From assembly GCF_988243305.1 (NCBI RefSeq), contig NZ_OZ547136.1: a DNA stretch of 64,000 bases. One strand, 5' to 3'. Below are positions 62,636-64,000 of the stretch, in pieces. A program made the position numbers. Within the stretch, counting starts at the first letter, position 1. Every line of letters starts with the position of its first letter.

Positions 62636-64000
62636 TAGCCCCGTCACGTAAAGCTTGTCGAGTTGACGGGCGGCATCATATGAATTCCGCCCGAATGTGT
62701 CAACGGCAAATTGCAACGTGTAGTTTCAATCGCTGAAAAATCAGGCAAATGAACAATTTTGGAAAACCGCTCGCATTCAGTAGTTATTCATGTCACGGTT
62801 TCCTGTAAAGTGGTGTTATAAAATGAACTACTAATAGACCCACATACATTCAGGGAATTGTTATGTTCAAGGAGAGGATGACGCCAGATGAACTTGCCAG
62901 ACTGACCGGCTATAGCCGCCAGACCATTAATAAATGGGTACGCAAGGAAGGCTGGACAACGTCACCAAAACCAGGCGTCCAGGGTGGCAAAGCCCGACTG
63001 GTTCACGTCAATGAACAGGTTCGTGAATATATTCGCAATGCTGAACGTCCAGAAGGTCAGGGAGAAGCGCCTGCCCTGTCTGGTGATGCGCCGCTTGAAG
63101 TGTTGCTGGTGACACTGGCGAAAGAGATGACGCCAGTTGAACAAAAACAGTTTACATCCTTGCTTCTGCGGGAAGGGATTATCGGATTATTACAACGCTT
63201 AGGGATTCGCGATAGCAAATAATATGAAAAGATTACGCAATAAAATGACCACCGAAGAACTGGCTGAATGCCTCGGTGTGGCTAAACAAACTGTTAACCG
63301 TTGGATCAGAGAAAAAGGCTGGAAAACGGAAAAATTTCCTGGCGTGAAAGGCGGTCGTGCCAGACTTATTCTGGTCGATACGCAAGTTTGCGAGTTTATT
63401 CAGAACACGCCAGCCTTCCATAACACGCCGATGCTTCTGGAAGCCGAAGAACCCCTTGCCGAATACGCACCGGGGATTCGCACTCCTGCTTATCGGCAAA
63501 TCATCAGCGCAATAGACAACATGACTCACAGTGAGCAGGAAAAAGTTGCGCAATTTTTGTCACGCGAAGGAATTCGTAATTTCCTTGCTCGTCTCGACAT
63601 AGATGAATCAGAATAAATAAATATCCTCCGGCATAGCCGGAGGTTTTTCAAATGCGCCTATAAGGCTCTCTTACCAGCCGCGCCCTAACAGGCGCACACG
63701 ATCTGACATTTGCATCCAACTTCGTTACTTACGGCCCGTAAACGGGCTGCCCGGATAGGGAATCGATAACTGCTCTCCCATTTTATCCTCTTCAAGCTGG
63801 TGCTTTATGTAATCCTGTATCTTCGCCGTGTTCTTACCCACCGTATCGACGTAATACCCTCTGCACCAGAACTCCCTGTTCCTGTATTTGAATTTCAAAT
63901 CACCAAACTGCTCGTAAAGCATCAGACTGCTTTTCCCTTTCAGATATCCCATAAAGCCTGATACGCTCATTTTGGGCGGGATCTCCACAAGCATATGGAT

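What the first reader, a model, noticed from the sequence alone, without database searches (positions are those of the whole stretch)
62863..63616. yfeC and yfeD are tandem paralogs with HTH-like N-termini, adjacent to tandem tRNA-Ala genes
The two small proteins align along their length (MT.EELA...G...QT.N.W.R..GW.T...PGV.GG.ARL..V...V.E.I.N ... REGI...L.RL.I). They look like small excisionase-like or MerR-like DNA binders, yet are chromosomally fixed next to tRNA genes and now next to an IS element. Their function is not established to my knowledge.
Basis: partly seen in the sequence, partly recalled or inferred. Interest (0 to 1): 0.3.

Follow-up and report, generated by a model that had tools for sequence, protein, structure and literature searches.

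The report
Mu-repressor-like regulator pair yfeC–yfeD
yfeC and yfeD are two adjacent, related small DNA-binding regulator genes of E. coli that are already catalogued and partly studied; they turn out to be shortened chromosomal relatives of the phage Mu immunity repressor, fixed at one housekeeping spot in all enteric bacteria examined.

Summary
yfeC (62863/62878–63222) and yfeD (63224–63616) are tandem paralogs (36% identity, E 5e-27), beside two tRNA-Ala(GGC) genes and an IS200 copy.

It is not new. Both belong to Pfam PF07037 "YfeC-like". RefSeq calls YfeC a DNA-binding dual regulator. A 2021 ChIP-exo study reports 50 YfeC sites, at least 36 YfeD sites and a ΔyfeC transcriptome.

"Excisionase/MerR-like" is right only at fold level. 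The closest specific relative is phage Mu repressor c. Profile–profile alignment covers the whole protein (97.8%, E 7e-13). It spans the Mu-type winged HTH with its GW…GVKGGKA wing and a C-terminal helix pair, but not Repc's last ~60 residues.

The pair is not mobile. All 80 Enterobacteriaceae species loci keep the order alaXW–yfeC–yfeD, with pdeA and gltX flanking wherever the fetched contig reaches them. No phage copies were found. The IS200 junction occurs in 11 of 5,426 E. coli genomes.

Most likely mechanism: a co-transcribed pair of mainly repressing regulators. The physiological role is still unclear, and the published regulon is noisy.

One lead is worth testing. The only ChIP-exo peak shared by both proteins maps to the start of sfsB, the chromosomal homologue of Mu Ner.

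The parts
62863..63222 (+). yfeC coding sequence (119 aa from ATG 62863; the K-12 annotation starts at ATG 62878, 114 aa)
   Evidence: ORF. PF07037 173 bits. PGAP in the near-identical strain Ec42 calls the 119-aa form, K-12 RefSeq the 114-aa form. In 17 genera the upstream ATG is invariant, and codons 4-5 change synonymously (GAG/GAA, AGG/CGG/CGA) while keeping Glu-Arg. This favours 62863 as the start.
62878..63040 (+). YfeC Mu-type winged helix-turn-helix (strand-helix-turn-helix-wing GW..PGVQGGKA-helix)
   Evidence: Secondary structure in the AF2 model. Alignment to MuA I-alpha 1tns, E 0.0046, and to Mu Repc.
63094..63198 (+). YfeC C-terminal helix pair (…EMTPVEQKQFTSLLLREGIIGLLQRL), presumed oligomerisation module
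   Evidence: Helices 73-83 and 86-107 in the model. Aligns to Repc 98-134; the C-terminal parts alone give E 1.6e-5, against 0.036 for the best of 30 column shuffles.
63224..63616 (+). yfeD coding sequence (130 aa). Its ATG lies 1 nt after the yfeC stop (TAAtATG), so translational coupling is likely.
   Evidence: ORF. PF07037 206 bits and HTH_17 31.3 bits. The tight yfeC-yfeD spacing of 1-15 nt is kept in all 80 species loci.
63242..63406 (+). YfeD Mu-type winged HTH (residues 7-61)
63485..63592 (+). YfeD C-terminal helix pair (residues 88-123), after a disordered linker (62-87)
   Evidence: AF2 model. hhalign to Repc 98-134.
63418..63600 (+). Segment of yfeD that exists as two deeply diverged allele classes within E. 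coli (linker and C-terminal helices)
   Evidence: K-12 versus window: yfeD 89.6% nt identity and dS 0.43, against 98.3-98.8% and dS 0.05-0.07 in pdeA, yfeC and gltX. Divergence is confined to these coordinates.
62814..62822 (+). Probable yfeC promoter: extended -10 element TGtTATAAA
   Evidence: TGnTATAA(A/C) is conserved in 17 genera. The consensus scan found no full -35/-10 promoter on this strand. Inferred, not shown.
62792..62815 (.). Conserved imperfect dyad GTCACnnTTTC-N4-TAAAnnGrTG overlapping the promoter spacer; a candidate operator whose binding protein is unknown
   Evidence: The TCAC, TTTC, TAAA and GrTG blocks are conserved while the bases between them vary. The site is unique in the window, PWM 33.8 against a next-best 9.8. 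It is not found at sfsB or in the Mu left end.
62675..62703 (-). alaWX promoter (TTGACA-17-TATGAT), divergent from yfeC
   Evidence: Consensus scan, 11/12 matches. Invariant across 17 genera, together with the G+C-rich stretch downstream of the -10.
62567..62642 (-). alaW, tRNA-Ala(GGC)
   Evidence: ARAGORN. Rfam RF00005, 63 bits. K-12 annotation.
62452..62527 (-). alaX, tRNA-Ala(GGC)
   Evidence: ARAGORN and Rfam. The published 'yfeC' ChIP-exo peak (2516052-85 in NC_000913.2) converts to the 3' end of this gene, roughly window 62440-62473.
62421..62444 (-). alaWX terminator hairpin followed by a T run
   Evidence: Terminator scan.
63622..64000 (-). IS200C copy (runs off the window). It is inserted 5 nt after the yfeD stop, upstream of the native yfeD/gltX terminator. 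Its end hairpin at 63625-63643 now follows yfeD.
   Evidence: Collinearity with IS-free genomes stops at query position 1322, which is window 63621. Comparison with K-12 and Ec42 shows the native terminator displaced beyond the IS. TnpA match. Annotation in Ec42.

Best explanation
yfeC and yfeD form one small operon encoding two paralogous DNA-binding transcription regulators. They are vertically inherited core genes of Enterobacteriaceae, not parts of a mobile element.

Each protein is a shortened relative of the phage Mu immunity repressor (Repc). It has an N-terminal Mu-type winged helix-turn-helix whose wing carries the GW-x5-GV(K/Q)GG(K/R)A signature. A flexible linker of about 25 residues follows, then a C-terminal helix pair that corresponds to Repc residues ~98-134. 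Repc's last ~60 residues are absent.

Most likely mechanism. The winged HTH reads DNA, and the helix pair lets the proteins pair up as homo- and perhaps hetero-oligomers on repeated half-sites. Bound near promoters they mostly repress.

Shown here: paralogy, family membership, homology to Repc, fixed synteny, and absence from phages.

Shown by others: in vivo DNA binding of both proteins by ChIP-exo, 205 genes changed in a yfeC deletion, and 16 of 20 'direct' targets repressed.

Inferred only: oligomerisation through the C-terminal helices, co-transcription and translational coupling, autoregulation, and origin by ancient domestication of a Mu-like repressor followed by tandem duplication before the family diversified.
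For: Paralogy: E 5e-27; both match PF07037.

Mu link:
- A profile of the family hits MuA I-alpha (1tns) best in the PDB, E 0.0046, with the wing motif aligned.
- hhalign of the family against a single Repc sequence: 91.9%, E 7e-7, 111 columns.
- hhalign of the family against 12 Repc-like proteins: 97.8%, E 7e-13, YfeD 4-120 to Repc 13-133.
- N parts alone give E 2.7e-11. C parts alone give E 1.6e-5, against 0.036 for the best of 30 column-shuffled controls.
- Mu Repc scanned against Pfam hits PF07037 at 23.1 bits, just over the 22.9 cut-off, residues 42-132.
- Repc is phrog_7148 (7e-73), the PHROG that YfeC and YfeD match weakly over most of their length.

Fixed core locus:
- 80/80 species loci carry yfeC followed by yfeD; tRNA-Ala genes lie upstream, with gltX found in 72 loci and pdeA in 61.
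- Distant members in Cronobacter, and in unidentified metagenomic contigs, sit in the same context.
- The pair is present in 5,425 of 5,426 complete E. coli genomes.
- No tblastn hit in 50,697 phage records.
- Only 268 relatives at E<=1e-3 among 1.84 billion representative proteins.

Function (literature): ChIP-exo sites, a reported motif of TTC-rich inverted repeats and the transcriptome (PMC8464067). RefSeq names YfeC 'DNA-binding transcriptional dual regulator YfeC'. A yfeC mutant of E. coli K1 colonises the small intestine poorly and is less lethal (PMC5847654).
Against: - The published regulon is noisy. Many peaks lie inside genes or at very highly expressed genes (rpmH, rpmB, rpsU, lpp, a tRNA gene), which are typical ChIP artefacts. 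Several gene labels do not fit the coordinates.
- By eye, the ten strong sites I extracted share no motif, and a PWM of the conserved promoter dyad does not pick them out: 2 of 10 lie above the background 95th percentile.
- The yfeC deletion raises yfeD about 20-fold. The 'YfeC regulon' may therefore partly reflect excess YfeD or read-through from the deletion scar.
- Dimerisation is not supported by modelling. A fused YfeC-linker-YfeD model with paired orthologues gave pTM 0.27 and lower confidence in the helices.
- Neither protein reaches the gathering score of PF02316, the Mu DNA-binding domain (YfeC 14.6 against 23.3).
- At fold level, excisionase and MerR-like domains match as well as or better than the Mu repressor domain.
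- Identity to Repc is only about 20%.
Confidence: 0.72

Rival explanations
1. They are excisionases (recombination directionality factors) left from, or serving, an element integrated at the tRNA-Ala genes.
Against: - YfeC fails both models.
- Excisionases are single-domain proteins of 50-80 residues. These have an extra conserved C-terminal module that aligns to Mu repressor.
- No integrase lies beside the pair. The immediate neighbours are pdeA/alaXW and gltX across the 80 species loci and in the annotated records.
- The genes face away from the tRNA genes and are separated from them by a conserved divergent promoter region.
- No phage homologues.
Confidence: 0.04
2. They are ordinary MerR-family regulators, as RefSeq labels yfeD. 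Such regulators are dimeric activators that remodel promoters with long spacers in response to a ligand.
Against: - MerR_1 scores 12.6 and 12.3 bits against a cut-off of 21.6.
- There is no long coiled-coil helix directly after the wing and no effector-binding domain. Instead there is a disordered linker and a short helix pair.
- Most reported direct targets are repressed, not activated.
Confidence: 0.06
3. They are a type II toxin-antitoxin pair. RASTA-Bacteria predicted this in 2007, and the E. coli K1 TraDIS paper repeats it.
For: Two small, tightly coupled genes, one with an antitoxin-like HTH. RASTA-Bacteria listed yfeD/yfeC as a high-confidence new pair (PMC2374986; PMC5847654).
Against: - The two proteins are paralogs with the same architecture, and both bind DNA in vivo. 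Neither has a toxin domain.
- Deleting yfeC raises yfeD about 20-fold without reported toxicity, and growth of the K1 mutant is normal.
- PADLOC gives only an HTH-level match.
- The pair is a fixed single-copy core locus, unlike mobile TA modules.
Confidence: 0.02
4. The similarity to Mu repressor is only generic HTH resemblance plus chance similarity of leucine-rich helices. On this view YfeC/YfeD are an independent enterobacterial invention.
For: Identity to Repc is about 20%. PF02316 is not reached. HTH_17 scores higher than the Mu model on the HTH itself. The C-terminal match alone has only 79% hhalign probability.
Against: - The two matching modules occur in the same order with similar spacing, and together give E 7e-13.
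- The wing motif GW-x5-GVKGGKA is shared with both Repc and MuA.
- Shuffled and reversed controls for the C-terminal part score far lower: 14.1 and 11.6, against 29.4.
- The reciprocal Pfam hit exceeds the curated cut-off.
- Some members are named 'HTH Mu-type domain-containing protein' in UniRef.
Confidence: 0.12

Closest known systems
Phage Mu / D108 immunity repressor c (Repc; Pfam PF02316 HTH_Tnp_Mu_1, phrog_7148; structures 1QPM, 1G4D)
   Same: Same order of modules. There is a Mu-type winged HTH with the GW…GVKGGKA wing, then a variable linker, then a helix pair with the pattern E(M/L)xPxExxKxxxxLLx(R/K)xG(I/L)xxL(L/M). Alignment covers YfeD 4-120 to Repc 13-133. Both bind DNA and mainly repress; for YfeC this rests on the literature.
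   Different: - YfeC/YfeD are 114-130 aa against 196 aa. They lack Repc residues ~134-196, which by established knowledge hold the rest of the leucine-rich oligomerisation region and the tail that controls ClpXP-dependent inactivation.
- The recognition helix differs (QTxNxWxR against AGxHxRA), so a different DNA specificity is expected.
- They are not in a prophage and not next to ner/A/B. They are a fixed core locus, duplicated in tandem.
- The PF02316 gathering score is not reached.
MuA transposase domain I-alpha (enhancer-binding winged HTH, 1TNS/1TNT)
   Same: Best PDB sequence match of the family profile (E 0.0046). hhalign 92.7%, E 4e-7 over 40 columns, including the wing.
   Different: Only the first ~45 residues correspond. 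There is no transposase core.
SfsB (Nlp), the chromosomal homologue of Mu Ner
   Same: A precedent for a Mu early-region regulator recruited as a conserved enterobacterial chromosomal gene (review PMC8987985). Ner and SfsB are 64% identical. YfeC/YfeD would be the matching case for the other Mu switch protein.
   Different: SfsB is much closer to its phage counterpart (64% against ~20%), is single-copy, and belongs to a different HTH class. The link between yfeCD and sfsB is one shared ChIP-exo peak, not a tested regulation.
Excisionases / recombination directionality factors (Xis, AlpA, TorI, RdfS; TIGR01764, Pfam HTH_17)
   Different: Excisionases are single-domain proteins and work with an adjacent integrase on att sites. 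Here there is an extra conserved C-terminal module, with no integrase and no att sites.
MerR-like small DNA binders and regulators (BldC, RacA DNA-binding domain, MerR/CueR/SoxR)
   Different: The MerR HMM threshold is not met. There is no coiled coil directly after the wing and no effector domain.

Membership tests
Pfam PF07037 YfeC-like (formerly DUF1323) | Full-length match to the family HMM above the gathering score (22.9 bits) | tested here: met
   YfeC 173 bits over profile positions 1-122; YfeD 206.1 bits over 1-122.
Pfam PF07037 YfeC-like | Enterobacterial proteins of about 120 residues at the alaXW-gltX locus | tested here: met
   80/80 species loci keep yfeC followed by yfeD, with tRNA-Ala genes upstream in nearly all; gltX was found in 72 and pdeA in 61, the rest being mostly short contigs. 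Cronobacter members share the context, and so do unidentified metagenomic contigs; other named genera (Franconibacter, Atlantibacter, Chimaeribacter) are known from protein names only.
Mu-type HTH / Mu repressor c family (PF02316, PROSITE HTH Mu-type) | Match to the PF02316 HMM above its gathering score (23.3 bits) | tested here: not met
   YfeC 14.6 bits (E 0.041). YfeD is not among its listed hits.
Mu-type HTH / Mu repressor c family | Homology detectable by profile-profile comparison, including the wing motif GW-x5-GVKGGKA | tested here: met
   hhalign 97.8%, E 7e-13, 109 columns. N parts alone E 2.7e-11. Mu Repc hits PF07037 at 23.1 bits against a 22.9 cut-off. 1tns E 0.0046.
Mu-type HTH / Mu repressor c family | Winged HTH fold as in 1QPM/1TNS | tested here: met
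Mu-type HTH / Mu repressor c family | Full Repc architecture, with the complete leucine-rich region and the C-terminal regulatory tail (~residues 134-196) | tested here: not met
   The alignment ends at Repc residue 133, and YfeC/YfeD end 6-10 residues later.
Mu-type HTH / Mu repressor c family | Encoded at the left end of a transposable prophage, divergent from ner-A-B | tested here: not met
   Core chromosomal context. No Ner-, MuA- or further Repc-like sequence in the window at E<0.01. No phage hits.
Mu-type HTH / Mu repressor c family | Binds Mu operators and confers immunity | not testable with these tools
   Needs plating and reporter assays. The recognition-helix residues differ from Repc, so cross-binding is not expected.
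MerR family transcription regulators | Match to MerR HTH models (PF13411) above threshold | tested here: not met
   12.6 and 12.3 bits against a cut-off of 21.6.
MerR family transcription regulators | Long dimerising coiled-coil helix directly after the winged HTH, plus a C-terminal effector-binding region | tested here: not met
   The model shows a disordered linker (residues 62-87; pLDDT <50 for 73-82) and then two short helices. Full-length MerR proteins align only at rmsd 9-14 A.
Excisionase / RDF (TIGR01764; HTH_17) | Match to the excisionase DNA-binding domain model above threshold | tested here: inconclusive
   YfeD: HTH_17 31.3 against 27 (passes), TIGR01764 27.5 against 28.8 (fails). 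YfeC fails both, at 20.9 and 18.7.
Excisionase / RDF | Partner integrase and att sites next to the gene; part of an integrative element | tested here: not met
   Neighbours are pdeA, alaXW and gltX in 80 species loci and in annotated E. coli and Cronobacter records. The Kosakonia insertion downstream holds ordinary accessory genes and no recombinase.
Type II toxin-antitoxin module | One gene encodes a toxin and the other its neutralising antitoxin | tested here: not met
   The two products are paralogs with identical architecture and no toxin domain. PADLOC gives only an HTH-level hit. A 20-fold excess of yfeD in the yfeC deletion is tolerated.

The most novel reading that the evidence does not exclude
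YfeC/YfeD (Repc-like) and SfsB (Ner-like) may together be the remains of a Mu-type lysogeny switch captured by an ancestor of the Enterobacteriaceae, and may still be wired together.

The only ChIP-exo peak that YfeC and YfeD share at the same start coordinate (3332954 in NC_000913.2) converts to codons ~8-17 of sfsB. Among the 34 factors mapped in that study, only these two have it, plus a weak YciT peak 40-70 bp upstream. In Mu, Repc represses the promoter that drives ner. On this reading the chromosomal copies kept that relationship while sitting at unlinked loci and acquired host targets.

A side possibility is that the two old allele classes in the C-terminal half of yfeD reflect selection on partner choice between the paralogs.
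Probability: 0.15. Interest if true: 0.6.

Novelty: already known. Interest (0 to 1): 0.27.

Why it matters
As stated, the finding adds nothing new. The paralogy defines a Pfam family, and both proteins have already been put through ChIP-exo.

What the re-analysis adds is a sharper identity. These are not MerR proteins, excisionases or a toxin-antitoxin pair. They are shortened homologues of the Mu immunity repressor that became fixed host genes and then duplicated.

That matters in three modest ways:
- It corrects database and literature labels ('MerR family', 'LysR', 'toxin/antitoxin locus').
- It supplies a second example, beside Ner/SfsB, of a Mu switch protein recruited by enteric bacteria. 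It also suggests a cheap experiment: do YfeC/YfeD control sfsB?
- It warns that the published 'YfeC regulon' is confounded by 20-fold overexpression of the paralog.

A yfeC mutant of neonatal-meningitis E. coli colonises the gut poorly, so the real targets may be worth knowing.

Tried and rejected
- **Foldseek against the PDB.** Nothing at E<=1e-3. Whole-length matches to MarR proteins have TM ~0.3 and rmsd >9 A, so they are meaningless for a two-domain model with a floppy linker.
- **Direct PDB sequence search with YfeD alone.** Only chance pannexin hits.
- **Heterodimer modelling.** I joined YfeC and YfeD with a 30-residue Gly/Ser linker, using 38 paired orthologue sequences. The model gave pTM 0.27, and helix confidence fell from 84-88 to 72-77. 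This is no support either way, and the tool returns no contacts.
- **Recovering the published YfeC motif.** Ten strong ChIP-exo sites extracted from NC_000913.3 share nothing obvious by eye. TTCC/GGAA-type fragments recur but not in register. The supplement holds no motif text.
- **Conserved dyad in the yfeC promoter as the YfeC/YfeD operator.** A PWM from 17 genera scores 2 of 10 ChIP sites above the background 95th percentile, and finds nothing at sfsB or in the Mu left end. The dyad is real, but its binding protein is unknown.
- **Similarity of the yfeC upstream sequence CATTCAGTAGTTATTC to the Mu operator sequence CTTTTCAGTAATTATC.** Noted, but it is short, post hoc and not conserved in other genera. 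Dropped.
- **Mobile-element co-occurrence.** No phage hits. The 'plasmid' hits include five records of 1.4-5.4 Mb that are evidently chromosomes filed as plasmids, and every one of the 13 records carries two matching places. PADLOC gives only an HTH-level match to mad1.
- **Rfam scan of 60000-64000.** Only the two tRNAs.
- **Literature.** No paper in the searchable library mentions yfeC together with phage Mu. A first search for Mu repressor domain papers returned noise.
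Full report
**1. What is in the window**

The window is E. coli chromosome. Its last 4 kb holds, in order:
- pdeA/yfeA (60055-62304, - strand);
- two tRNA-Ala(GGC) genes, alaX (62452-62527) and alaW (62567-62642), both on the - strand;
- a 220-235 bp divergent control region;
- yfeC (62863 or 62878 to 63222, + strand);
- yfeD (63224-63616, + strand), starting 1 nt after the yfeC stop;
- an IS200C copy that runs off the window.

In K-12 the same order continues directly into gltX and the valU-lysV tRNA cluster. In strain Ec42, which is 99.6% identical to the query segment (window 62300-64000), the IS200 sits between yfeD and gltX.

**2.

YfeC and YfeD align along their whole length: 46/129 identical, E 5e-27. 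Both match Pfam PF07037 'YfeC-like' end to end, at 173 and 206 bits against a cut-off of 22.9. An alignment of 20-24 orthologues shows two conserved modules separated by a variable stretch:
- MTxEELAxxxGxxxQTxNxWxRxxGWxTxxxxGV(K/Q)GG(K/R)ARL;
- MTxxEQxxxxxxLxREGIxGxLxRLGI.

**3. It is already known**

- The family exists in Pfam under this name.
- RefSeq K-12 names the products 'DNA-binding transcriptional dual regulator YfeC' and 'putative DNA-binding transcriptional regulator YfeD'.
- Gao et al. (NAR 2021, PMC8464067) tagged both proteins and ran ChIP-exo. They report 50 YfeC sites with a motif described as TTC-rich inverted repeats 6 nt apart, and at least 36 YfeD sites.
- The same study found 205 differentially expressed genes in a yfeC deletion. 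Of 20 genes both bound and changed, 16 were repressed.
- An earlier screen linked yfeC to extracellular DNA release (cited).
- A yfeC::kan mutant of E. coli K1 colonises the neonatal rat small intestine poorly and is less lethal (PMC5847654).
- A yfeC mutant of EHEC had no effect on LEE1 expression.

So 'function not established' is only partly true. DNA binding in vivo is documented, but the physiological role is not.

**4. What kind of DNA binder**

The AlphaFold2 model of YfeD has mean pLDDT 75.7. It shows strand-helix-turn-helix-strand-wing-strand-helix (residues 7-61), a disordered linker (62-87) and two helices (88-98, 102-123).

The family thresholds say otherwise. MerR_1 scores 12 bits against 21.6. 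TIGR01764 scores 27.5 and 18.7 against 28.8. Only YfeD passes the generic HTH_17 model.

**5. The specific relative is the phage Mu repressor**

- A profile of the family searched against all PDB sequences finds MuA domain I-alpha (1tns) first, E 0.0046. The wing aligns residue for residue: GWqnrtraGVKGGkA against GWkTekkpGVkGGrA.
- I fetched phage Mu and ran hhalign. The family against the single Repc sequence gives 91.9%, E 7e-7 over 111 columns. Against MuA 1-91 it gives 92.7%, E 4e-7 over 40 columns.
- With an alignment of 12 Repc-like proteins, the profile-profile result is 97.8%, E 7e-13, YfeD 4-120 to Repc 13-133.
- Split in two, the N-terminal parts give E 2.7e-11. The C-terminal parts alone give E 1.6e-5 (score 29.4, YfeD 86-122 to Repc 98-134). 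The best of 30 column-shuffled controls scored 14.1 and a reversed control 11.6.
- Reciprocally, Mu Repc scanned against Pfam hits PF07037 at 23.1 bits, just above its curated cut-off, over residues 42-132.
- Repc is the founding member of phrog_7148 (7e-73), which YfeC and YfeD hit weakly over most of their length.
- UniRef already calls some family members 'HTH Mu-type domain-containing protein'. The N-terminal resemblance is therefore in databases. I found no paper that discusses it.

The proteins stop where Repc still has about 60 residues. By established knowledge (not tested here), that missing part completes the leucine-rich oligomerisation region and carries the tail that governs ClpXP-dependent inactivation. 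The recognition helix also differs from Repc, so the same operators are not expected.

**6. Not mobile**

- A scan of one genome per species returned 211 relatives. The 80 best are all Enterobacteriaceae.
- All 80 loci carry yfeC followed within 1-15 nt by yfeD. Nearly all have tRNA-Ala(GGC) genes upstream. gltX lies downstream in 72 and pdeA upstream in 61; most of the rest are short contigs.
- Distant members show the same context in Cronobacter and in unidentified metagenomic contigs. Franconibacter, Atlantibacter, Scandinavium and the yersiniacean Chimaeribacter also encode family members, known here from protein names only.
- One metagenomic contig of unknown origin has a single copy next to gltX.
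- In Kosakonia, ordinary accessory genes lie between yfeD and gltX: an MBL hydrolase, TetR- and MmyB-type regulators, an MFS transporter and a PhzF-like protein. No recombinase is among them.
- The family is tiny: 268 representatives at E<=1e-3 among 1.84 billion, and many of those are fragments or unrelated multi-HTH proteins.
- There is no tblastn hit in 50,697 phage records. The 13 'plasmid' hits include five records of 1.4-5.4 Mb that are evidently mis-filed chromosomes, and every record carries two matching places.
- YfeC evolves more slowly than YfeD. Median identity to E. coli is 74% against 53%, with YfeC the more conserved in 75 of 79 loci. GltX is at 94%.

The simplest history is one ancient capture of a Mu-like repressor gene and a tandem duplication before the family radiated. 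This is inference.

**7. Control region**

Alignment of the alaW-yfeC spacer from 17 genera shows three features:
- The alaWX promoter (TTGACA-17-TATGAT on the - strand, 62703-62675) is invariant, together with its G+C-rich stretch downstream of the -10 and an upstream conserved block.
- For yfeC there is a conserved extended -10 (TGnTATAA, 62814-62822).
- Overlapping the spacer lies a conserved imperfect dyad, GTCACnnTTTC-N4-TAAAnnGrTG (62792-62815). Its fixed blocks stay constant while the bases between them vary.

That looks like a protein-binding site. It is unique in the window, with PWM score 33.8 against a next-best 9.8. It is not found at sfsB or in Mu, and it does not pick out the ChIP-exo sites. 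Its binding protein is unknown.

The same alignment bears on the start codon. The upstream ATG (62863) is invariant. The Lys-Glu-Arg codons before the second ATG change synonymously (GAG/GAA; AGG/CGG/CGA).

**8. Caveats on the published regulon**

- The coordinates are in NC_000913.2. After conversion, several labels do not fit. The strongest 'chaA' peak lies between chaB and chaC. The 'yfeC' peak falls on the 3' end of alaX, about 400 bp from yfeC.
[quoted passage not shown] Part of the 'YfeC regulon' may therefore be a YfeD-overdose effect or read-through from the deletion scar.
- The 20-fold rise is also what autorepression of the operon would give. The two cannot be separated with these data.

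**9. A lead**

YfeC and YfeD share one peak with the same start coordinate: 3332954-3332983 and 3332954-3332975, with S/N 28.6 and 57.6. Adding the 1,977-bp offset puts it at 3334931-3334960 in NC_000913.3. That is codons 8-17 of sfsB (3334909-3335187).

In the file listing all 588 sites of 34 factors, only YfeC, YfeD and a weak YciT peak 40-70 bp upstream fall there. It is therefore not a general hot spot.

SfsB is the chromosomal homologue of Mu Ner, 64% identical with E 5e-29, and is a textbook case of a recruited phage regulator (PMC8987985). In Mu, Repc represses the promoter that drives ner. The chromosomal Repc-like pair binding at the chromosomal ner-like gene is a striking coincidence.

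It remains one peak in a noisy dataset. sfsB is not among the genes changed in the yfeC deletion, and I found no shared sequence motif.

**10. Rivals**

- Excisionase: no integrase, no att sites, and an extra domain.
- MerR family: thresholds and architecture are not met.
- Toxin-antitoxin (RASTA-Bacteria 2007): the two are paralogs without a toxin.
- Chance similarity to Repc: controls and reciprocal hits argue against it, but identity is low.

A heterodimer model gave no confident interface.

**11. Verdict**

The finding is correct and ordinary in the sense that the genes and the family are catalogued and have been assayed. The re-analysis refines their identity as Mu-repressor-like, fixed and duplicated. 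It corrects several labels and produces one testable lead (sfsB) and one population-genetic oddity (section 12). Interest is modest.

**12. Seen in passing: two allele classes of yfeD**

Within E. coli the yfeCD segment is present in 5,425 of 5,426 complete genomes. It falls into identity classes of >=99% (591 genomes), 95-99% (1,729) and 90-95% (3,107).

Between K-12 and this window:
- pdeA, yfeC and gltX are 98.3-98.8% identical, with dS 0.05-0.07;
- yfeD is 89.6% identical, with dS 0.43 and dN/dS 0.10.

All the difference lies in 63418-63600, the linker and C-terminal helices: 25 synonymous and 9 non-synonymous codon changes. The K-12-type segment is closest to cryptic-clade and E. whittamii alleles. 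The window type is closest to Escherichia sp. MOD1-EC7003. This looks like an old recombinant or trans-specific polymorphism.

Noticed in passing
window 63418-63600 (3' half of yfeD): Two deeply diverged allele classes of yfeD exist within E. coli. K-12 versus this window: 89.6% nt identity and dS 0.43, while pdeA, yfeC and gltX are 98.3-98.8% identical (dS 0.05-0.07). Divergence is confined to the linker and C-terminal helices; the HTH half is identical. About 57% of complete genomes fall in the 90-95% identity class that contains K-12.
   Followed up: partly
NC_000913.3 3334931-3334960 (locus L092 932-961), outside the window: The only ChIP-exo peak that YfeC and YfeD share at the same start coordinate maps, after conversion from NC_000913.2, to the first codons of sfsB, the Mu Ner homologue. 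The paper labels it rplU/ispB. Of 34 factors, only YfeC, YfeD and a weak nearby YciT peak occur there.
   Followed up: partly
published data for K-12 (PMC8464067 supplements): Deleting yfeC raises yfeD about 20-fold and lowers ybaQ about 36-fold, and YfeD has a binding site at ybaQ. The 'YfeC regulon' may therefore partly be a YfeD-overexpression effect. Several peak labels do not match the converted coordinates: the 'chaA' peak lies between chaB and chaC, and the 'yfeC' peak lies on the alaX 3' end.
   Followed up: partly
window 62792-62815: A conserved imperfect dyad, GTCACnnTTTC-N4-TAAAnnGrTG, overlaps the yfeC promoter spacer in 17 genera and is unique in the window. Its binding protein is unknown.
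   Followed up: partly
window 62863-62880: Start codon of yfeC. K-12 RefSeq uses the second ATG (114 aa). The first ATG is invariant in 17 genera and the intervening Lys-Glu-Arg codons change synonymously, which favours the 119-aa form.
   Followed up: yes
window 63617-63650 and beyond: IS200C is inserted 5 nt after the yfeD stop, in the A-run just before the native yfeD/gltX bidirectional terminator. The hairpin now following yfeD (63625-63643) belongs to the IS. The junction is shared by only 11 of 5,426 complete E. coli genomes.
   Followed up: yes
window 62704-62760: A strongly conserved block (…AATCGCTGAAAAAGCAnGCAA…) lies upstream of the alaWX -35, with a G+C-rich stretch after the -10. 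This looks like upstream-activating and stringent-control elements of a tRNA promoter. Not tested.
   Followed up: no
L065 (Enterobacter sp. BIGb0383) 5259-6384; L003 (Escherichia sp. MOD1-EC7003) 5883-5996: Copy-number variants exist. One genome has yfeC plus two yfeD-like genes in tandem, and another has a truncated yfeC beside an intact yfeD.
   Followed up: no
L073 (Kosakonia oryzendophytica) 6400-12384, and other Kosakonia loci: In Kosakonia, gltX is not next to yfeD. About 6 kb of accessory genes follow instead: an MBL-fold hydrolase, TetR- and MmyB-type regulators, an MFS transporter and a PhzF-like protein, with no recombinase.
   Followed up: partly
literature: Labels are inconsistent. 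YfeC/YfeD are listed under LysR in a 2016 compilation, called a toxin-antitoxin locus in 2007 and 2018, and yfeD is named 'MerR family' by PGAP. None of these fits the sequence evidence.
   Followed up: yes
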